Part shown: positions 1,011 to 8,645 of the stretch, piece by piece | How positions within the stretch are numbered: position 1 is the first letter of the stretch | Layout: each line of letters begins with the position of its first letter | Assembly (NCBI GenBank): GCA_049517415.1 | Contig: JBEKSC010000008.1 | Location: 1-40,000 of the forward strand | Direction: 5' to 3' | Source of the DNA: Candidatus Bathyarchaeia archaeon | GTDB taxonomy: Archaea; Thermoproteota; Bathyarchaeia; 40CM-2-53-6 | DNA length: 40,000 nt | The notes under the pieces: generated by a model | Databases searched by the model: none | What the model saw: the letters and a program-made list of their open reading frames with translations, nothing else | Told to the model about the DNA's origin: nothing | Program-made: the position numbers and the translations under genes

Positions 1011-1715
1011 TTGCGTGCAGGTCAGGAGAGAATTCCAACTGGTTGCAGCGGTTTGGATAAACTTCTCAACGGAGGCCTCGCAAGAGGAGAGGTGGCACTA
1101 GTTTATGGTGAAGCTGCAACCGGCAAAACAACTACAGTGATTCAGACTGCAATTGCCGCAGCCAAGTTAGGCCTCAAGATACTGTACTTGGACTCCGACC
1201 ATTCGTTCACCCAGCAGAGGTTTCATCAGATAGCTGGAGTGAAATCTGATGAGATCAGCCAACTTATCCTGCTCTTCCTGCCCGAGACTTTTTCAGAGCA
1301 ACGGAGTATCGTTGAATCGCTCGAAAACTATGTCACACCAGCTCTTGGTTTGGTGATTATCGATTCTATGAGCTCCCTCTATCGAGCTGCATTTTCAGGT
1401 TCGGAGAGCATTTTCAGTCTCAACAGAGATCTAAGTAGGCAGGTTGCGTACTTGGGAGATTTGTCCGCTTCTCGCAGAATTGCCTGTATTCTTACAAGTC
1501 AAGTTCACGCCCGCCTAACCAAGACTTCAGGTGAAATTGAACCAGTCGCACGCAGGGCGTTGTTCCATTTTCCGCAGACGATCCTCAGGATTAGAAATAC
1601 TCCCAGGACGAATGTCAAGGAGTTCGTTTTGGAGAGAAGGGGAGGTTCAGACGTTGCGAGAACTAGTTGCCTCATTGCACTCGGTGAAACCGGACTGTCG
1701 GATGTCTCAACCTAA
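1011..1715 (+). CDS. radB: RadB-type RecA-superfamily ATPase (RadA paralog)
   Basis: RIPTGCSGLDKLLNGGLARGEVALVYGEAATGKTT carries a Walker A motif (GxxxxGKT). YLDSDHSF and VIIDSMSSLY provide a Walker B-like strand. The size (234 aa) fits RadB. The start codon is TTG. Confidence 0.65.
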   Translation: MRAGQERIPTGCSGLDKLLNGGLARGEVALVYGEAATGKTTTVIQTAIAAAKLGLKILYLDSDHSFTQQRFHQIAGVKSDEISQLILLFLPETFSEQRSIVESLENYVTPALGLVIIDSMSSLYRAAFSGSESIFSLNRDLSRQVAYLGDLSASRRIACILTSQVHARLTKTSGEIEPVARRALFHFPQTILRIRNTPRTNVKEFVLERRGGSDVARTSCLIALGETGLSDVST

Positions 1716-1735
1716 CTCTTATCTCCGTAAACCCG

Positions 1736-2269
1736 ATGCTAGCGTTTGTCTCTCAGCTTGTGAACAGCTTGTGGCCTCCGACACAGGATTTGATTTCAGC
1801 TCTCTACATCATAGTACCAGCATACTGCACTAACGGTGCTCCAGTAATTTTTGGCGGCGGCCACCCATTAGATCTGGGCAAATCTCTCTCCGATGGGAAC
1901 CGGATACTCGGTGACAACAAGACGGTCCGCGGACTTCTTAGTGGGTTAGTGGTTGGCGCAATAGTTGGGGCTTTTGGCTACTACTTTTTCTCAAGGAAGC
2001 TGTTCCTGGTCGCAGTCTTGGCGTCGGGCGGCGCGCTTTTGGGCGACTTGGGAGGTGCTTTTCTAAAGAGGAGATTGAAAATCAAACCGGGGAACGCATT
2101 GCCAGGAATAGATCAACTGGATTTTGTCTTGGGTGCAATACTGTTTGTTTCTTCGGTTTACAGCTTAAGTCTGGGAGCAATCGTAATATTGCTTTTTGTG
2201 ACTCCGCCCATTCACTTTCTCATGAATGTTGTCGCGTACTATATTGGGCTTAAGAGGAACTATTGGTGA
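1736..2269 (+). CDS. carS: CDP-archaeol synthase
   Basis: The polytopic 177-aa protein has IIVPAYCTNGAPVIFGGGHPLDLGKSLSDGNRILGDNKTVRG. This is the hallmark CarS (DUF46) motif. Confidence 0.8.
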   Translation: MLAFVSQLVNSLWPPTQDLISALYIIVPAYCTNGAPVIFGGGHPLDLGKSLSDGNRILGDNKTVRGLLSGLVVGAIVGAFGYYFFSRKLFLVAVLASGGALLGDLGGAFLKRRLKIKPGNALPGIDQLDFVLGAILFVSSVYSLSLGAIVILLFVTPPIHFLMNVVAYYIGLKRNYW

Positions 2270-2279
2270 GTTAGCGTTA

Positions 2280-2738
2280 TCATCCGCCGATCTTTTGATT
2301 TATGAGCGCATTCGAGTAGAATACGACAATAAGTACCATAAGCGTGCCTAGTATGAGGAGGAGGTACGCGTTGCGTGGTCTGTAAGCAAATCTTGTGCTC
2401 CGAAGAAGCATGTAAAGACCCCCGAGGCCCAGCATGTAGAGGAAAGCCGCAATCAGGCTCTCGTTCAGTGTTTGCTCACCCAAGGTTCCCTGAATGACGA
2501 CTGAGTATCCGGTAGCGGATGGCAGGAGAGAGATTGGGCGTTCTAGTATATCGTATACTCCTCCAGCCAGTACGAAACCGACGAAGACAAGAACCGCGAC
2601 AATCATTACAGTGGTCGAGGGTTTCATCCTTCTTGCGTTGGGCGACCTGAAAATTCTAATGGAATAGCTTAGGTTTGTGAAAGTTCGTTGTAGTCTCCAT
2701 GGCAGCCTGCGAAGCTTGATTCGAAGCCCTTCGAACAT
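2280..2738 (-). CDS. Three-TM membrane protein resembling the eukaryotic OST subunit OSTC/DC2 (Ost3/Ost6 TM domain)
   Basis: The ORF spans 2280..2756 (GTG). ATG 2738 is preferred and ATG 2627 is also possible. The segments GFVLAGGVYDILERPISL, GEQTLNESLIAAFLYMLGLGGLYMLLRS and NAYLLLILGTLMVLIVVFY align colinearly with human OSTC as I remember it. The function is an inference. Confidence 0.55.
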   Translation of the reverse strand: MFEGLRIKLRRLPWRLQRTFTNLSYSIRIFRSPNARRMKPSTTVMIVAVLVFVGFVLAGGVYDILERPISLLPSATGYSVVIQGTLGEQTLNESLIAAFLYMLGLGGLYMLLRSTRFAYRPRNAYLLLILGTLMVLIVVFYSNALINQKIGG

Positions 2739-2822
2739 ATTTTGCAACACTCGCACTTAGAATGACCACGAGGCTAAAATATGTTACCGTGCTTGTCCTC
2801 GCTTGGCTAACGTGGTTAGGGC

Positions 2823-2996
2823 ATGCCACAAAAAATCGTATGCGAAGCCTGCGGCTCGATTCTATATGATGGGCTTGAACTAGAGACGCCAACCGAAATC
2901 ATTCAACGGCACAACGGTATCTGCCCACAATGCAAGAAAAAACTAGATTTCGTAACTGAGAAAGTCAAAATAGTTCCCTACGAAGAAACGGCCTGA
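2823..2996 (+). CDS. Small zinc-ribbon protein (57 aa)
   Basis: My own translation gives MPQKIVCEACGSILYDGLELETPTEIIQRHNGICPQCKKKLDFVTEKVKIVPYEETA*. It has a CxxC...CxxC pattern, lies below the ORF-track size cutoff, and is divergent from the OSTC-like gene. Confidence 0.5.
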   Translation: MPQKIVCEACGSILYDGLELETPTEIIQRHNGICPQCKKKLDFVTEKVKIVPYEETA

Positions 2997-3033: not shown

Positions 3034-4188
3034 TTGCTCAAAGATGTTCAGGTGCAAAGTTTTCATGCGGAAAACGGGCATCTGACGGAATTCGCAGGTT
3101 TCAACCTCCCTCTCTGGTTCAAAGGAATCATACTCGAATCAATGGCTGTTAGAAACGCTGCAGGAATTTTCGACGTAAGCCACATGGGTCGCGCGATAAT
3201 TCGGGGGAAGAATTCAGAGAAGTTACTGGATAGTTTGTCGACGAATAACGTTGCGTCCCTTGCGAACGGACAAGGCCAGTACTCCCTTCTCTGCAACCCT
3301 GAAGGGGGCATCAAAGATGATGTGCTGGTCTTCCGGTTGCAAGAGGGCGAGCACTTAATCGTTTACAACGCTGCGAACCGCTCTAAAGACTACGATTGGA
3401 TTCTAAACAACAGCAGAGGCTTGAATGTTGACATCCAAGACGTATCTGATGATGTCGCGATGTTCGCTGTGCAAGGCCCGAAAACGATCTCCATCATGCA
3501 ATCACTGTTTAGTGTTCAACTCGATGCAATTCCTAGGTTCGGGTGCTCTTGGGCACAGGTTGCTGGGACCAAGGCCTTGGTTTCTAGGACAGGCTATACT
3601 GGGGAGGACGGGTTCGAATTGTTCGTTTGGGATTCTCCTGTAGCTAAACCTGAGAAAGCACGAATGGTTTGGGATCGAGTCTTGCAGGCCGGAAAACCCT
3701 ATGGGCTTGAGCCATGCGGGTTGGGTGCTCGAGATGTTCTGCGCTTGGAAGCTGGGCTTTGCCTATACGGTACGGACATGGATGAGAACACAAACCCGTA
3801 CGAGGCGAAGCTGGGGTTCGTAGTAAAACTAGACAAGGAGTTCATCGGCAAGAAGAGATTGCAAGAAGTTAAAGAAAAGGGACCGTTGAAAACACGCATT
3901 GGCCTTGTAACAACGAGACGTGTTATTCCAAGGCATGGGTTTAACATAATTCACTCTGCGAAAAATGTCGGAACAGTAACAAGCGGAACTCTATCACCGA
4001 TTCTGAACAAAGGCATCGCAATGGGGTACGTTGGACCTGACTTTGGACGGGAAGGCATTGATATCGAAATCGAGGTAAGAGATCGTCTAGAGGAGGGCAA
4101 GATTGTCAAACCGCCATTTTACGATCCAAGCAAGTATGGATATTCAAGAAAGACACAGGTAACTTCGTCAGACGGTGCTAACGTTTAA
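3034..4188 (+). CDS. gcvT: Glycine cleavage system T protein (aminomethyltransferase)
   Basis: GIFDVSHMGR, QYSLLCNPEGGIKDDVLVFR and SRTGYTGEDGFELF match the GcvT family over the full length. The start codon is TTG. Confidence 0.9.
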   Translation: MLKDVQVQSFHAENGHLTEFAGFNLPLWFKGIILESMAVRNAAGIFDVSHMGRAIIRGKNSEKLLDSLSTNNVASLANGQGQYSLLCNPEGGIKDDVLVFRLQEGEHLIVYNAANRSKDYDWILNNSRGLNVDIQDVSDDVAMFAVQGPKTISIMQSLFSVQLDAIPRFGCSWAQVAGTKALVSRTGYTGEDGFELFVWDSPVAKPEKARMVWDRVLQAGKPYGLEPCGLGARDVLRLEAGLCLYGTDMDENTNPYEAKLGFVVKLDKEFIGKKRLQEVKEKGPLKTRIGLVTTRRVIPRHGFNIIHSAKNVGTVTSGTLSPILNKGIAMGYVGPDFGREGIDIEIEVRDRLEEGKIVKPPFYDPSKYGYSRKTQVTSSDGANV

Positions 4189-4522
4189 TTTTCTGATCGT
4201 GTCGTGACATTAAGTTCCCATAAAGGGATTCACCAGCGGTCCCCTCTGGCTCCTCACCCAACTCACCGATTTCCTCATTGGTCATCGCTGAAGTTGGCTT
4301 CAGAACAGTGACGATTGGCCCCCATCGTATGCCCCTTAGAGTCGGCAGTGTCTTTCCACATTCGAGACACTGCTCCAAGCCTTCGGGGTTAGCTGTCCCG
4401 CAGGAAGAACAATAGATAGGTTTCAGTATTGATCCGCAATCAATGCAATACCTGGCATCCAGTTTGTTTACCCTTTTGCAAGAGGGGCACCTTACGATTG
4501 TACCTGCCAATCTACCAACCAC
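4178..4522 (-). CDS. Double zinc-ribbon domain protein
   Basis: VRCPSCKRVNKLDARYCIDCG and IYCSSCGTANPEGLEQCLECG form two CxxC...CxxC ribbons, followed by an acidic tail. The 3' end overlaps gcvT by 11 nt (convergent). Confidence 0.6.
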   Translation of the reverse strand: MVGRLAGTIVRCPSCKRVNKLDARYCIDCGSILKPIYCSSCGTANPEGLEQCLECGKTLPTLRGIRWGPIVTVLKPTSAMTNEEIGELGEEPEGTAGESLYGNLMSRHDQKIKR

Positions 4523-4599
4523 GATTTATGGAGGTTCGCTACACATCCAGACAAGTCTTTCGTAGTTGAACTTTGGTTTCTCGGTCGGGATGATTTCGA

Positions 4600-5751
4600 T
4601 TGACAAGTGACGGATCACGAGGTGCCGAGGCATCCGAGGAGGTTCCAAATGTGGGCCTTATCGTAAATCCGATCGCAGGAATTGGTGGCGCCGTAGGACT
4701 CAAGGGAACGGATCGCCCCGAGATCTTAGAGGAGGCCTTGAGACGTGGAGGTCGTCCAGTCGCGCCAGAGCGTTCTATTCGGGCGCTAAGGGCAATGAAA
4801 CGGAACCTTCCGGGAGTGAACGTAATCACTTGTCCTGGCGAAATGGGGGAGAACGAGGCGGCCGCGGCCGCCATACACTGTGATGTGATACAAATTCAGC
4901 TTATGGAAAGAACTACTGCAGTTGACACTCTAAAGGCAGCTAAAGAGCTCGAACGCAAAGTATGCCTGCTATTGTTTGCTGGTGGAGATGGTACCGCTCG
5001 TGATATTTCGGAAGCTGTTGATGCTCATGTTCCCGTGCTCGGCATACCTTGCGGCGTAAAGAACTATTCCGGAGTTTTCGCGTCTTCACCCGAGGCCGTT
5101 GGAGGAACAGTCGCGTTGTTCATGGAGAACAAGAATGCGACGGTTGACTCCGAGGTGTTGGATTTCGATGAAGATTCGATGCGCAATGGTAGAATTCAAA
5201 CGAGAATCTGTGGAATATTGCGCGTGCCCTCTGCAAGGCGTTTCATGCAAAATGCGAAATCGGCTCCGTTCTCATTAGAGGGGGACATTGAGCAAGAAGC
5301 GTTGGCCAAGTTTGTTGCAGAAGATATGGACAAGGAATTTCAATACGTCCTAGGTCCTGGTTCAACTACCAGTAAGGTTGCTGAATTGCTGAATGTGCAA
5401 AAGACATTGCTCGGAGTTGACGTTATTCTCAGGGGTAGGTTGGTTGCTAGAGATGTAACTGGCAGGGAGTTAGAAGACCTAGTCCGATTACGATCAACGA
5501 AGTTGGTTATCTCCCCCATCGGCGGGCAGGGCCACATCCTAGGCAGAGGAAATCAACAAATTACCCCTAACGTGATTCGAGCAATTGGAAAAGAAAACAT
5601 CATCGTGATCTGTACCAGAAGCAAATTGGCCAATCTTCCTAACCGAAGGTTATATGTCGACAGTGGCGATATCCGATTGGACAACGAATTGGTTGGCTAT
5701 TGGCGTATTGTGGTGGGATATCGTGAATTTGCTGTAGTCAAAGTAGATTAA
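4600..5751 (+). CDS. ATP-NAD kinase-like family protein (COG3199 type)
   Basis: GLIVNPIAGIGGAVGLKGTD, LLLFAGGDGTARD and GIPCGVKNYSGVF are diagnostic. The start is TTG 4600, or GTG 4651 immediately before GLIVNPIAG. Confidence 0.7.
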   Translation: MTSDGSRGAEASEEVPNVGLIVNPIAGIGGAVGLKGTDRPEILEEALRRGGRPVAPERSIRALRAMKRNLPGVNVITCPGEMGENEAAAAAIHCDVIQIQLMERTTAVDTLKAAKELERKVCLLLFAGGDGTARDISEAVDAHVPVLGIPCGVKNYSGVFASSPEAVGGTVALFMENKNATVDSEVLDFDEDSMRNGRIQTRICGILRVPSARRFMQNAKSAPFSLEGDIEQEALAKFVAEDMDKEFQYVLGPGSTTSKVAELLNVQKTLLGVDVILRGRLVARDVTGRELEDLVRLRSTKLVISPIGGQGHILGRGNQQITPNVIRAIGKENIIVICTRSKLANLPNRRLYVDSGDIRLDNELVGYWRIVVGYREFAVVKVD

Positions 5752-5870: not shown

Positions 5871-8645
5871 ATGTCAGCTACCCGGCAAGCCCTGAGGAAG
5901 GTGCGTGGCTTCCTAGGGAAGTACGTAAACCGCGAAACACTTGCCGGCCGTGTTGAAGGAACTCGCAAAGTTCTTTCAGGCATCTCTCGAGGAACAGCCA
6001 TAGAAGCAATTGTAGTTGGCTTGATTGTTCTCATAGCACTAGCCGTCCGAATAATGCCTATCCGCTGGGGATTCTTCCTAAACGAATTCGATCCGTACCT
6101 GCAATGGCGCATGGCACAGTACGTGGTCGATCACGGTTTCTTGGCGTGGTTTAACTGGCATGACACGATGAGTTGGTATCCATACGGCGCGGACATGCCC
6201 ACATGGAACCTCTACGGTACGGCCTTCGTAATAGCGGCAATTACGATGATACTGAATTATGTTGGCGTAAATGTAACCGTGTTTGTGGTTGCAATTATCT
6301 TTCCAGTAGTCGCCGGAACCCTAACCGTTCTAGCAGCATACTTCCTTGGAAAGGATTTCTGGGGAAAAGGCGCAGGATTGTTTACCGCCCTGTTCTTGGC
6401 TTTGAATCCAAGCAGTATCGGCCGAACCCAACTTGGTTTTCTCCGTCATGAGCCGCTTGGCATTCTCCTGATGATACTGATCTTCCTCTTCTTCAGAAGG
6501 TCGACTGTGCCAACCTCTTCAACCCGTAAGACGCTGATATACGCTGGCTTAACCGGCTTCATGCTCTTCTACCTGGCCGCGGAGTGGGCCGGAGGCCTAT
6601 ACCCGCTGGACCTACTGGTTCTCTACGTAGTTGTTTTAGGCGTACTGGGTCGTTCCTCGAAGAAACTCTTCCTAAGCTATTCTATCACTATGGGGATATT
6701 CTTACTCTTTACACCATTTTTGGTCCCGAAGCTTGGGTTAGCCTCACTTAGTGATTTCGGCTGGCTGGTGATCCCGGTTGGGGAAGTAGTCCTACTTGCT
6801 CGCGAAGCCTCCTCATATGTCACCAATAGGATGCACCAGATTTACGCGCTAACGGCGACGGTACTTGGAACCATAGCCGTTGTTGGCTTTCTTTCGTATT
6901 TCCACGTGGTTTCTTTCCCCTATGGCAAATTCTATGCCGTAATAGACCCGTTTGTCCGAGGTAACGTTCCAATCATCGCAAGTGTTGCGGAACATCAACC
7001 CGCAACATGGGGTTCGTTCTTCTACGAATTTGGAGGGCTTATTTTTCTGATTCTGTTCGGCTTCGTTTTCATCCTGCAAAGGGTTAGGAACGACGATATC
7101 TTCCTACTTCTATGGGGAGTCACTGCTGTCTATTTTGCGGCATCCTTCGTCCGTCTAACCTTGCTCCTTGCTCCGGCATTCTGCATATTAGCTGCCATAG
7201 GGACAGTGGAACTTGGAAAACCTGCAGTCGACATTGTGCGCGAGGCGGTTATCTATCCAAAGCATAAGACACGAGTCATAAGTAGAATTGGCCGAGAGTT
7301 TGGTGTCGCCATCTTCCTAATCCTCCTCATAATCATAATTCCGACCTTCTGGACGGCGGTGCGTGGTTCATACCAACCCGCCACAATCGTCACTTCGAGT
7401 ATACCCACAGCTCCAACAGCTGGGCAGGAATTCAAGTATGCAGATTGGCTTGAGGCGTTGTCGTGGATGCAACAGAACACGCCTACTGGTTCGGTTATTT
7501 TCGCGTGGTGGGACTATGGGTATTGGATCACAGCTCTAGGCAATCGGAAAACGCTCGCAGATAACGGTACCCAAAACGACACGCAGATAGCCGTGATAGC
7601 TCAAACCTTCCTCGACAATACCACTATGGCGATCCCTAATCTCCAGAAGTATAACGTATCCTACGTGGCTATCTTTATCACGCCTTCAGGTGGCAGTCAA
7701 GGAGGATACCAAGGGTTCGGCGAGGACGGGAAATGGTATTGGATGGCTCGCATCGGAAATAACACGATGTGGAACAACTATAAAGTGATCTACACGGAAA
7801 CTACTGTCGCCACTCAAAGTGGTAGCACCAGTTCGAGCTATACCCAATTGCTCGAGGACTCGAAAGGAAGAGTCGTAAGTAACGATACGATTGCAGACAA
7901 TAACCAGCTCAACGACCACACGATGTTAGGCTACATGATGGCTGAGGTAACAAATGCGGCAAATGAACATGCCTCTCCATACTTCACACGTGTCTTCTCT
8001 TCATCGAACAACTTTGTATTCCTCTTCCAGGTGAGAATTCTAAGGTCAGTTCACCTATCGATCAATCCAACCAAACACGAAATCCCATACGGACAGCAAG
8101 TGGTGCTTGCTGGGAGTCTTGGTGATGCCTCTGGAAACCCATTAAGCATCAACAACCCGTCGGTCGCATTAGAAACATCTACCGACAGTGGCCAAACGTG
8201 GCAGCAAATAACAACCGCGCCTGTCTCTCCAAACGGAACGTATAGCTACAACTGGACACCTGACGCTGGCAATTACATTATTCGAGCCCACTACCTAGGT
8301 GCTGTCGGACCGTACGCAGAGGCTGCGACTACGCCTGAAGCCCTACTTGTGCAAACCGGAACAGTAAATTTGAGTATCACAACACCCTCCCATTCAGTAA
8401 CGATCGGCCAGAACGTTACGGTGACGGTTCAAATGTCCCCGTTCGTGAGCGGAGCCAACGTAACCATATCGTATACCTTTGACAACAAAACATTTGTTCC
8501 GATCCAAACTGTAATCATGAATTCCCCCAGCATGAGTTTCACTTGGCTTGTTAACATACCTGGGAGCTTTACATTGGCCGCGAACTGGCCAGGAAACCAA
8601 AACTACAACCGAGCACTGGCGGAAATTACGCTCAACAAGTCATGA
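5871..8645 (+). CDS. aglB: Archaeal oligosaccharyltransferase AglB (STT3 homolog) with a C-terminal Ig-like extension
   Basis: The N-terminal half is polytopic. The catalytic WWDYGYWI (WWDYG) motif is present, and the C-terminal beta-rich domains are repeated. Confidence 0.9.
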   Translation: MSATRQALRKVRGFLGKYVNRETLAGRVEGTRKVLSGISRGTAIEAIVVGLIVLIALAVRIMPIRWGFFLNEFDPYLQWRMAQYVVDHGFLAWFNWHDTMSWYPYGADMPTWNLYGTAFVIAAITMILNYVGVNVTVFVVAIIFPVVAGTLTVLAAYFLGKDFWGKGAGLFTALFLALNPSSIGRTQLGFLRHEPLGILLMILIFLFFRRSTVPTSSTRKTLIYAGLTGFMLFYLAAEWAGGLYPLDLLVLYVVVLGVLGRSSKKLFLSYSITMGIFLLFTPFLVPKLGLASLSDFGWLVIPVGEVVLLAREASSYVTNRMHQIYALTATVLGTIAVVGFLSYFHVVSFPYGKFYAVIDPFVRGNVPIIASVAEHQPATWGSFFYEFGGLIFLILFGFVFILQRVRNDDIFLLLWGVTAVYFAASFVRLTLLLAPAFCILAAIGTVELGKPAVDIVREAVIYPKHKTRVISRIGREFGVAIFLILLIIIIPTFWTAVRGSYQPATIVTSSIPTAPTAGQEFKYADWLEALSWMQQNTPTGSVIFAWWDYGYWITALGNRKTLADNGTQNDTQIAVIAQTFLDNTTMAIPNLQKYNVSYVAIFITPSGGSQGGYQGFGEDGKWYWMARIGNNTMWNNYKVIYTETTVATQSGSTSSSYTQLLEDSKGRVVSNDTIADNNQLNDHTMLGYMMAEVTNAANEHASPYFTRVFSSSNNFVFLFQVRILRSVHLSINPTKHEIPYGQQVVLAGSLGDASGNPLSINNPSVALETSTDSGQTWQQITTAPVSPNGTYSYNWTPDAGNYIIRAHYLGAVGPYAEAATTPEALLVQTGTVNLSITTPSHSVTIGQNVTVTVQMSPFVSGANVTISYTFDNKTFVPIQTVIMNSPSMSFTWLVNIPGSFTLAANWPGNQNYNRALAEITLNKS

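What the first reader, a model, noticed from the sequence alone, without database searches (positions are those of the whole stretch)
2280..2738. Archaeal look-alike of eukaryotic OST subunit OSTC/DC2 (Ost3/6 TM domain), 3 kb from aglB
Seen in the sequence, three TM segments align colinearly with human OSTC as I recall it:
- GFVLAGGVYDILERPISL against YFLITGGIIYDVIVEPPSV
- GEQTLNESLIAAFLYMLGLGGLYMLLRS against [27 protein letters not shown]
- NAYLLLILGTLMVLIVVFY against NRFLLLFIGFVCVLLSFFM

Archaeal N-glycosylation is generally described as using AglB alone. As far as I recall, accessory OST-subunit homologs have mainly been reported for Asgard archaea. A homolog close to aglB in a TACK-type genome would bear on the origin of the multi-subunit OST.
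Basis: partly seen in the sequence, partly recalled or inferred. Interest (0 to 1): 0.6.

Follow-up and report, generated by a model that had tools for sequence, protein, structure and literature searches.

The report
Archaeal OSTC-like partner gene near AglB
A small three-helix membrane protein of a soil or peat Bathyarchaeon is a true relative of human OSTC/DC2, a helper subunit of the protein-glycosylating enzyme, and it probably partners the eukaryote-like AglB encoded 3 kb away; such helpers have already been mentioned for non-Asgard archaea.

Summary
ORF 2280-2738 (minus strand, 152 aa, three predicted transmembrane helices) is a genuine homologue of eukaryotic OSTC/DC2, which corresponds to the membrane module of Ost3/6.

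- **Homology.** Human OSTC is the only significant solved-structure match: E 4e-6 for the single sequence and 8.6e-14 for an archaeal-only profile. It also gives the top four Foldseek hits.
- **Real gene.** It is single-copy and under purifying selection (dN/dS 0.05-0.16).
- **Distribution.** I found it in all 46 genomes of its class (Bathyarchaeia) in the sample searched with the broad profile. I found it in about half of the other genomes of the phylum.
- **Synteny.** It sits in an old conserved block: eIF2a-Nop10 | AglB, 57-aa zinc ribbon <-> OSTC-like | CarS-RadB.
- **Related genes.** The AglB is most similar to human STT3A (E 5e-76). The genome also encodes a ribophorin I homologue, and 60 of the 61 genomes with a ribophorin I match also carry the OSTC-like gene.

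My best reading is a non-catalytic partner of AglB. The binding itself is inferred, not shown.

One 2024 paper already states that OST1 and OST3/6 occur in TACK archaea, and this scan has met the family before on other DNA. I classify it as a new member of a known kind, of moderate interest.

The parts
2280..2738 (-). OSTC/DC2-like gene: 152 aa, basic cytoplasmic N-terminus (11 K/R in residues 1-41), three TM helices, short external C-terminal tail ending KIGG
   Evidence: ORF. Start set by homologues. OSTC hits. Pfam PF04756 E 4e-4. Models and Foldseek. Hydropathy and charge. dN/dS 0.05-0.16.
2775..2785 (-). A/T-rich TATA-like box (AACATATTTTA) about 40 nt upstream of the ATG, in the 84-bp divergent intergenic region shared with the zinc-ribbon gene
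   Evidence: Read directly from the sequence. Its role as a promoter is inferred only. It would place the transcript start near or after the alternative GTG at 2756.
2823..2996 (+). 57-aa four-cysteine zinc-ribbon protein, divergent from the OSTC-like gene and on the AglB strand. It is a conserved neighbour that lies between the two genes in most related loci.
   Evidence: ORF. Only weak zinc-ribbon Pfam hits. No PDB relative. Conserved position.
3034..5751 (.). Intervening genes that separate the zinc ribbon from AglB in this genome: GcvT aminomethyltransferase (3034-4188 +), double zinc-ribbon protein (4178-4522 -) and an NAD-kinase-like gene (4600-5751 +). Their presence varies in relatives.
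   Evidence: Pfam. GcvT is missing in L031 and L035. The NAD kinase is present only in the window and L021 among the close relatives. All three are absent from the compact arrangement in L042, L043 and L052-L054.
5871..8645 (+). AglB/STT3 catalytic oligosaccharyltransferase: 924 aa, eukaryote-like, with two C-terminal Ig-like domains. It is the only STT3 in the genome.
   Evidence: Pfam STT3 5e-36, STT3-PglB_core and Big_3_5. Single genomic match. Best PDB hit is human STT3A at 5.3e-76, against 1e-9 or weaker for solved archaeal AglB chains.
1011..2269 (+). RadB-like recombinase (1011-1715) and CDP-archaeol synthase CarS (1736-2269). They are convergent with the OSTC-like gene (stop codons 10 bp apart) and are its most constant neighbours across the phylum.
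   Evidence: Pfam and NCBIfam. Synteny.

Best explanation
ORF 2280-2738 (minus strand) encodes a 152-aa protein with three transmembrane helices and a predicted N-in/C-out topology. It belongs to the same family as eukaryotic OSTC/DC2, the membrane module of Ost3/Ost6/TUSC3/MagT1, and the Asgard 'OST3/6' proteins. It has no thioredoxin domain, so its architecture is of the OSTC/DC2 type. It most likely works as a non-catalytic membrane subunit that packs against the transmembrane domain of the STT3A-like AglB encoded in the same ancient gene block. With the ribophorin I-like protein encoded elsewhere in the genome, this would form a minimal multi-subunit oligosaccharyltransferase in the cytoplasmic membrane. 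By analogy with DC2, it may stabilise AglB and hold it next to the SecYE-beta channel so that proteins are glycosylated as they emerge. Shown here: homology, fold class, gene reality, near-universal single-copy presence in the class, conserved linkage with AglB, and co-occurrence with ribophorin I. Inferred: physical binding to AglB. More speculative: docking to the translocon.
For: Homology:
- Human OSTC is the only significant PDB hit, over its full length: E 4e-6 for the single sequence, 8.6e-14 with a 30-cluster archaeal-only profile and 4.4e-20 with 112 representatives.
- MagT1 TM2-4 comes next, at 1e-8.
- All five near-invariant archaeal positions (G59, Q89, G107, G131, K149) are identical in human OSTC in the alignment.
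- 84 of 112 family representatives hit Pfam OST3_OST6, best E 8e-12.
- A profile built only from Bathyarchaeia retrieved a choanoflagellate OSTC from 1.8 billion proteins.
- Profile-profile comparison with the Asgard-type clade gives 99.9% probability, E 1.5e-34.

Fold:
- Two AlphaFold models both give human OSTC chains as the top four Foldseek hits (probability 1.00, TM 0.45-0.60 normalised to the target), followed by MagT1.

Gene reality:
- dN/dS is 0.05-0.16.
- The protein is better conserved than the neighbouring AglB, CarS and RadB.

Context:
- The narrow profile A1 found the gene in 177 of 201 class genomes, and the broad profile found it in 46 of 46.
- Of 72 class genomes I compared, 46 have it within 10 kb of STT3. 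Orientation is divergent in every pair where I compared strands. In family f22 only 0.5-0.6 kb separate the matched parts.
- All 8 distant class loci and 14 of 32 loci outside the class still have AglB within 10 kb. Seven of the 40 loci show the compact arrangement OSTC-like <-> zinc ribbon-AglB.
- The AglB is most similar to STT3A.
- The genome encodes a ribophorin I homologue at 70 bits.
- 60 of the 61 genomes with a ribophorin I match also carry the OSTC-like gene, against about 35 expected if the two were independent.

Literature:
- DC2 is unstable without STT3A, needs its lumenal C-terminal tail to assemble, and mediates OST-Sec61 contact (PMC5674889).
Against: - No experiment or co-folding here shows that the protein binds AglB.
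- CarS and RadB are more constant neighbours than AglB: about 27 of 32 loci outside the class against 14 of 32. Part of the linkage may therefore be inherited gene order rather than selected coupling.
- In this window three unrelated genes lie between the zinc-ribbon gene and AglB.
- The protein scores below Pfam's gathering threshold (20.3 against 27 bits).
- Model confidence is modest (pLDDT 65-69) and Foldseek E-values are only about 1e-3 to 1e-2.
- Several large families of the phylum have AglB-type glycosylation without this gene, so it is not required for AglB activity as such.
- Counts across related genomes are not independent.
Confidence: 0.7

Rival explanations
1. The protein is a true OSTC/Ost3-family homologue but works independently of AglB. 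It could be a small membrane protein tied to lipid or envelope biogenesis, given its tight convergent pairing with CDP-archaeol synthase, or a cation-transport factor as once proposed for MagT1/TUSC3. On this reading the proximity to aglB is only inherited gene order.
For: CarS and/or RadB flank the gene in about 27 of 32 loci outside the class, while AglB is within 10 kb in only 14 of 32. The whole block, including eIF2a and Nop10, is conserved, which shows that unrelated housekeeping genes can stay linked here. Pfam names the family 'transporter family'.
Against: Every characterised member of the family is an OST subunit that contacts STT3 directly (PMC5674889; structures 6S7O and 6S7T). In the compact arrangement the gene is the divergent partner of the zinc ribbon-AglB pair, and the intervening genes vary while the linkage persists. 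The gene co-occurs with a second OST subunit homologue, ribophorin I. CarS is convergent with it, so the two are not co-transcribed.
Confidence: 0.22
2. The resemblance to OSTC is a chance or compositional match between hydrophobic helices, not homology.
For: The query is a short membrane protein. The Pfam score is below threshold. Foldseek E-values are only 1e-3 to 1e-2 on models of modest confidence.
Against: The alignment is colinear and full-length, and identities fall on the family's invariant positions. E-values strengthen steadily with profile depth, to 8.6e-14 without any eukaryotic sequence in the profile. OSTC and MagT1 are the only significant hits among 177,635 PDB sequences. An independent search of 1.8 billion proteins recovered a eukaryotic OSTC. 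The structural search ranks the same chains first, twice.
Confidence: 0.02
3. The protein is an AglB partner but serves a role that differs from DC2's. It might be a structural stabiliser or a lipid-linked-oligosaccharide or substrate-selectivity factor like the Ost3/6 membrane domain, with no contact to the Sec translocon.
For: Archaeal glycosylation happens at the cell surface and is generally thought to be largely post-translocational (general knowledge). The cytoplasmic TM2-TM3 loop (RSTRxAYRPR) is strongly conserved in archaea but differs from the human loop. No KCP2 homologue was looked for.
Against: Nothing tested here separates this from the docking role. The AglB is closest to STT3A, the translocon-associated isoform.
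Confidence: 0.35

Closest known systems
Human/metazoan OSTC (DC2), the STT3A-specific subunit of OST-A (PDB 6S7O chain H, 8PN9 H, 8B6L J, 9N9J J)
   Same: Similar size (152 against 149 aa). Three TM helices, N-in/C-out, no thioredoxin domain. Shared motifs: GG-x-YD in TM1, Q-x3-E at the start of TM2, G-x2-G in TM2, a G in TM3, and a C-terminal K-x-G/P-G tail. About 28-30% identity over about 112-117 aligned positions. It is the best sequence and fold match. The partner enzyme in this genome is most similar to STT3A.
   Different: The archaeal protein has a longer and far more basic N-terminus. It has an invariant RSTRxAYRPR cytoplasmic loop that human OSTC lacks. It would sit in the plasma membrane rather than the ER. 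No KCP2, OST48, DAD1, Ost4 or Ost5 homologue was detected in this genome (KCP2 was not searched). Association with STT3 and Sec61 is shown for DC2 (PMC5674889) but not for this protein.
Ost3/Ost6 (yeast) and TUSC3/MagT1 (mammalian OST-B), Pfam OST3_OST6 PF04756
   Same: Homologous membrane module. Residues 37-148 of the 158-aa ORF translation (31-142 of the 152-aa protein) align to profile positions 170-281 of 294. MagT1 TM2-4 matches at E 1e-8 and is the fifth Foldseek hit.
   Different: There is no lumenal thioredoxin domain with CxxC and no first TM helix, so no oxidoreductase role is possible. This protein scores below the Pfam gathering threshold. Yeast Ost3 and Ost6 chains did not appear in the PDB searches at E <= 10.
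Asgard archaeal 'OST3/OST6' eukaryotic signature proteins (for example Prometheoarchaeum MK-D1; Zaremba-Niedzwiedzka 2017 as cited in PMC10307638 and PMC8993221; PMC11417166)
   Same: Same family: profile-profile probability 99.9%, E 1.5e-34 over 114 columns. Same size class. The Asgard proteins likewise accompany STT3 and ribophorin I homologues.
   Different: In a 112-representative tree the window's protein lies outside a fully supported clade (SH-like support 1.0). That clade holds the one eukaryotic OSTC in the tree, and close relatives of some of its members are labelled Heimdallarchaeota or Asgard. Some Asgard contigs carry two members of the family, whereas the Bathyarchaeia gene is single-copy. 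The additional OST subunits reported for Asgard (Ost2, Ost4, Ost5, Swp1, Wbp1; PMC10307638) were not all sought here: OST48, DAD, Ost4 and Ost5 were searched and not found, and Swp1 was not searched.

Membership tests
OSTC/DC2 | Small protein (about 150 aa) with three TM helices and no thioredoxin domain | tested here: met
   152 aa. Hydrophobic segments at about 42-65, 93-113 and 125-146. Helices at 42-66, 91-116 and 121-150 in the model. Pfam finds no other domain.
OSTC/DC2 | Significant full-length sequence similarity to OSTC, with OSTC as the best match | tested here: met
   6s7o_H gives E 4e-6, 1.8e-7, 8.6e-14 and 4.4e-20, and nothing else is significant except MagT1. The reverse direction also holds: the Bathyarchaeia profile retrieves Salpingoeca OSTC.
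OSTC/DC2 | Fold superposes on OSTC in OST-A cryo-EM structures | tested here: met
   The top four Foldseek hits for both models are OSTC chains, with probability 1.00, TM 0.45-0.60 normalised to the target and rmsd 4-5 A for most. Caveat: mean pLDDT is only 65-69.
OSTC/DC2 | N-terminus cytosolic, C-terminal tail on the lumenal/external side | tested here: met
   Positive-inside count: the N-terminus has 11 K/R and the TM2-TM3 loop has 3 K/R, against 1 each in the external loop and tail. This is a prediction only. DC2 topology is taken from PMC5674889.
OSTC/DC2 | Physically bound to, and dependent on, the STT3(A) catalytic subunit | not testable with these tools
   Only indirect support: conserved divergent linkage with AglB and an AglB closest to STT3A.
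OSTC/DC2 | Mediates contact between OST and the Sec61/SecY channel | not testable with these tools
   No data. Inferred by analogy only.
Pfam OST3_OST6 (PF04756) | Whole-protein score at or above the gathering threshold (27 bits) | tested here: not met
   20.3 bits, E 4e-4. The match covers only the TM part (positions 170-281 of 294), because the protein lacks the thioredoxin half of the model. 84 of 112 family representatives match at E < 0.01, best 8e-12. Many near-identical homologues carry a precomputed PF04756 hit.
Ost3/Ost6/TUSC3/MagT1 subfamily | N-terminal lumenal thioredoxin-like domain with a CxxC motif, plus four TM helices | tested here: not met
   Residues 1-41 are a basic stretch with no cysteine, and there are only three TM helices. 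The thioredoxin part of PF04756 matches other, separate genes in the genome.
Asgard-type archaeal OST3/6 family | Profile-level homology to the Asgard proteins | tested here: met
   hhalign probability 99.9%, E 1.5e-34. Relatives of the compared clade are labelled Heimdallarchaeota or Asgard group.

The most novel reading that the evidence does not exclude
Bathyarchaeia and roughly half of the other Thermoproteota genomes sampled would run a eukaryote-style multi-subunit oligosaccharyltransferase: an STT3A-like AglB, an OSTC-like subunit and a ribophorin I-like subunit. Its core would be encoded by an ancient divergent cassette, OSTC-like <-> 57-aa zinc ribbon-AglB. A multi-subunit and possibly translocon-docked OST would then predate the TACK/Asgard split rather than being an Asgard or eukaryotic invention. 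The conserved zinc-ribbon protein would be a further, so far unrecognised, component or regulator.
Probability: 0.4. Interest if true: 0.6.

Novelty: new member of a known kind. Interest (0 to 1): 0.4.

Why it matters
Archaeal N-glycosylation is usually described as the work of AglB alone. That picture comes from cultured models, and the large families of near-complete genomes in this phylum that lack the OSTC-like gene may include such lineages (their names are hidden, so this is my guess). This locus shows that a whole, abundant, uncultured class carries a eukaryote-like STT3 together with homologues of two eukaryotic accessory subunits. One of them is kept next to the enzyme gene. That pushes the likely origin of OST accessory subunits back to, or before, the common ancestor of TACK and Asgard archaea. 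It also offers simple three-gene systems in which the basic job of the DC2/Ost3 membrane module could be studied. The general point is already in the literature in one sentence (PMC11417166), and this scan has reached the same conclusion on other genomes. The added value is therefore in the detail: near-universality in the class, the conserved cassette, and the co-occurrence with ribophorin I.

Tried and rejected
- **GTDB contig scan for named relatives.** Only the close alignment A1 worked, and it returned only Bathyarchaeia-type contigs.
- **Naming the distant subfamilies.** The listing of cluster members named only the eukaryotic sequence.
- **Other OST subunits in this genome.** OST48 and DAD1 gave no match. 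Ost5 gave one insignificant match (13.5 bits, E 0.2). Ost4 gave no match. These are short or fast-evolving proteins, so absence is not proven. Ribophorin II/Swp1, KCP2 and the TRAP subunits were not searched.
- **Deeper alignment for the structure.** Adding Asgard sequences raised mean pLDDT only from 64.7 to 68.7 and did not improve the Foldseek scores.
- **Zinc-ribbon protein.** It has no PDB relative and only weak generic Pfam hits.
- **GTG start at 2756.** Rejected, because homologues start at the ATG.
- **Chance similarity and a non-coding ORF.** Rejected on E-values and dN/dS.
- **Complex prediction.** No multimer prediction was possible with the tools.

Full report
**1. The observation**

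The window has an ORF at 2280-2756 on the minus strand. Its homologues are 151-153 aa and start MLEGL/MFEGL. An A/T-rich TATA-like element (AACATATTTTA, 2775-2785) lies about 40 nt upstream, in the 84-bp region shared with a divergent gene. That it acts as a promoter is my inference.

A plain phmmer search of the PDB sequences returns only human and canine OSTC. The genome's only STT3/AglB gene is at 5871-8645 on the plus strand, 3.1 kb away and divergently oriented.

**2. Homology**

- **Pfam.** OST3_OST6 is the top family for this protein, but below threshold: E 4e-4, 20.3 bits against a cut-off of 27. Residues 37-148 of the 158-aa translation match profile positions 170-281 of 294, which is the membrane half only.
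- **Family size.** The family is large. The word-based search found 353 clusters at 90% identity. The exhaustive search of 1.8 billion representatives found 182 clusters at 50% identity. Nearly all of the 150 listed are 100-200 aa.
- **Pfam on representatives.** Of 112 full-length representatives, 84 hit OST3_OST6 on their own at E < 0.01, best 8e-12. No other family is hit by more than three.
- **PDB with profiles.** Human OSTC scores 1.8e-7 with 22 close homologues, 8.6e-14 with the 30 nearest clusters, and 4.4e-20 with all 112 representatives, aligned nearly end to end. One of the 112 turned out to be eukaryotic. MagT1 TM2-4 follows at 1.1e-8.
- **Invariant positions.** The five near-invariant archaeal positions (G59, Q89, G107, G131, K149) are identical in human OSTC in the alignment: GG-IYD, NGQYIMEG, GGLGF, FIGFV and MKLPG.
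- **Reverse check.** The profile built only from Bathyarchaeia sequences pulled out a choanoflagellate OSTC, from Salpingoeca urceolata in EukProt.

**3. Structure and topology**

Hydropathy gives three hydrophobic segments. There are 11 K/R in the N-terminal 41 residues and 3 in the TM2-TM3 loop, against 1 each in the TM1-TM2 loop and the C-terminal tail. This predicts N-in/C-out, the orientation reported for DC2 (PMC5674889).

Two AlphaFold2 models, with mean pLDDT 64.7 and 68.7, show helices at about 42-66, 91-116 and 121-150. For both models, Foldseek against the PDB ranks four human OSTC chains first (6S7O_H, 8PN9_H, 8B6L_J, 9N9J_J). These have probability 1.00 and TM-scores of 0.45-0.60 normalised to the target. 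MagT1 of OST-B is fifth, and there is a clear gap below it. The models are of modest confidence, so I use this only as corroboration.

**4. A real, constrained gene**

Against orthologues in named Bathyarchaeia MAGs, dN/dS is 0.05-0.16 wherever dS is not saturated. The protein is 73-93% identical in those comparisons, against 60-68% for most AglB orthologues and 58-73% for most CarS orthologues in the same loci.

**5. Organism and distribution**

Close relatives are labelled Candidatus Bathyarchaeia or Bathyarchaeota and come from peat and soil (SPRUCE, Microflora Danica).

| Sample | Profile | Result |
|---|---|---|
| 201 genomes of the class | narrow (A1) | 177 with a match, essentially always one per genome |
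| 120 high-quality genomes of that sample | narrow (A1) | 109 with a match |
| 46 class genomes in the phylum sample | broad (A2) | 46 with a match |
| 255 other genomes of the phylum | broad (A2) | 125 with a match |

Outside the class the pattern is sharply family-specific. Examples: f38 23/23, f45 17/18 and f40 11/12, against f33 2/45, f41 0/20, f34 0/14 and f47 0/11. The families that lack it are mostly near-complete, few-contig genomes. I suspect they are the cultured lineages, but I could not name them.

A profile-profile comparison of the window's clade with a second clade gives probability 99.9% and E 1.5e-34. Close relatives of that second clade are labelled Heimdallarchaeota or 'Asgard group'. 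This is therefore the same family as the Asgard 'OST3/6' proteins.

In a FastTree of the 112 representatives, the Asgard-type clade, which includes the eukaryotic sequence, is separated from the clade holding the window's protein with SH-like support 1.0. The tree is short, carries only one eukaryote and is midpoint-rooted, so it says nothing firm about direction.

**6. Genomic context**

I compared the places of the OSTC-like and STT3 matches in the same 201 genome handles, for 72 genomes:

- 46 have the two genes on one contig within 10 kb. Orientation is divergent in every pair where I compared strands.
- 5 have them 12-30 kb apart.
- 1 has them 116 kb apart.
- 20 have them on different contigs, mostly in fragmented assemblies.

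In family f22 the matched parts are only 0.5-0.6 kb apart.

Every close relative (21 loci) keeps the order eIF2a-Nop10 | AglB ... zinc ribbon <-> OSTC-like | CarS-RadB wherever the contig is long enough. The genes between the zinc-ribbon gene and AglB vary. GcvT is missing in two loci, and the NAD kinase is present only in the window and its nearest relative.

In 40 more distant loci cut from anonymous genomes:

- All 8 class loci have AglB within 7 kb.
- 14 of 32 loci outside the class still have AglB within 10 kb.
- Seven of the 40 loci show the compact form, with the OSTC-like gene divergent from a zinc ribbon-AglB pair.

The same analysis shows that CarS and/or RadB flank the gene in about 27 of the 32 outside loci. 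The AglB linkage is therefore embedded in an old block of otherwise unrelated genes, and it cannot be read as proof of functional coupling.

**7. Other OST parts**

- The AglB is far closer to human STT3A (E 5.3e-76, residues 40-634 against 14-608) than to any solved archaeal AglB (1e-9 or weaker).
- The genome encodes a 575-aa ribophorin I homologue: PF04597 at 70.2 bits against a cut-off of 25. By eye, its sequence shows a signal-peptide-like N-terminus, one TM segment and a charged helical C-terminal tail.
- Across the 301-genome phylum sample, ribophorin I was detected in 61 genomes. Sixty of them also have the OSTC-like gene, against about 35 expected under independence. The families without the OSTC-like gene had no ribophorin I match, except one weak sub-threshold match in f33 (1 of 45). 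Related genomes are not independent, and the Pfam model probably misses diverged ribophorins.
- OST48, DAD1 and Ost4 gave no match, and Ost5 gave only an insignificant one.

**8. How it most likely works**

Shown: the protein is an OSTC/DC2-type member of the Ost3/6 family. It is conserved, single-copy, linked to an STT3A-like AglB, and co-distributed with a ribophorin I homologue.

From the literature: DC2 is unstable without STT3A, needs its lumenal C-terminal tail to assemble into the STT3A complex, and together with KCP2 mediates contact with Sec61 (PMC5674889).

Inferred: the archaeal protein packs against the AglB transmembrane domain as a non-catalytic subunit. The invariant C-terminal K-x-G-G tail fits a conserved assembly contact. 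More speculatively, it positions AglB beside SecYE-beta. Lacking a thioredoxin domain, it cannot have the oxidoreductase role of Ost3/6.

Rivals:

- The same family, but with a function unrelated to AglB. The tight CarS pairing is the best argument for this.
- An AglB partner with no role at the translocon.
- Chance similarity, which is effectively excluded.

**9. Comparison with what is known, and novelty**

- Lombard 2016 found no prokaryotic homologues of the accessory subunits (PMC4973528).
- Ost1 and Ost3 homologues were then reported in Asgard archaea (PMC10307638; PMC8993221).
- Carilo et al. 2024 state in one sentence that OST1 and OST3/6 are found in eukaryotes, TACK and Asgard archaea (PMC11417166).
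- I found no paper in the searchable library that describes the Bathyarchaeia proteins, their universality in the class, the cassette with AglB, or the ribophorin co-occurrence.
- Earlier notes of this scan reach the same reading for other Bathyarchaeia, Methanomethylicaceae, Thermofilum-like and Asgard genomes. They are unchecked AI notes, and I re-tested the central claims here.

Noticed in passing
window 2823-2996 (+): A 57-aa four-cysteine zinc-ribbon protein sits between the OSTC-like gene and AglB. It lies on AglB's strand, directly upstream of AglB in the compact loci. It is found in all 8 distant class loci and about half of the loci outside the class. It has no PDB relative and only weak generic Pfam hits, so it could be an unrecognised component or regulator of the cassette.
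   Followed up: partly
own genome, contig C23: L007:1357-3084 (+): A ribophorin I (Ost1) homologue of 575 aa, PF04597 at 70 bits. By eye it has a signal-peptide-like N-terminus, one TM segment and a long charged helical C-terminal tail. The gene directly upstream looks like a hexapeptide-repeat acyltransferase, judged from its sequence and not tested.
   Followed up: partly
window 1736-2269 (+) and 1011-1715 (+): CDP-archaeol synthase and RadB are convergent with the OSTC-like gene (stop codons 10 bp apart). They are its most constant neighbours across the phylum, more constant than AglB. The reason for this pairing is unexplained.
   Followed up: partly
proteins P0329/P0339, P0328/P0338 and P0325/P0345: Several Asgard-type contigs (named relatives are labelled Heimdallarchaeota or Asgard group) carry two members of the OSTC-like family. 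In one case the locus tags are adjacent (FK733_11975 and FK733_11980). This suggests tandem paralogues, unlike the single copy in Bathyarchaeia.
   Followed up: no
window 5871-8645 (+), residues about 734-920: The AglB carries two C-terminal bacterial Ig-like (Big_3_5) domains. AglB reading frames in this order are about 910-930 aa, against about 660-770 aa in most other families of the class. The extension therefore appears to be specific to this order.
   Followed up: partly
L029, L032, L040; P0075, P0331: Contigs carrying this clearly archaeal gene block are deposited under bacterial MAG names (Acidiferrales, Methylomirabilota, Acidoferrum, Zixibacteria). They are probably mis-binned contigs in public assemblies.
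   Followed up: no
window 3034-5751: GcvT, a double zinc-ribbon protein and an NAD-kinase-like gene are inserted between the zinc-ribbon gene and AglB. Among the close relatives the NAD kinase gene is present only in the window and its nearest relative (L021), and GcvT is missing in L031 and L035.
   Followed up: partly
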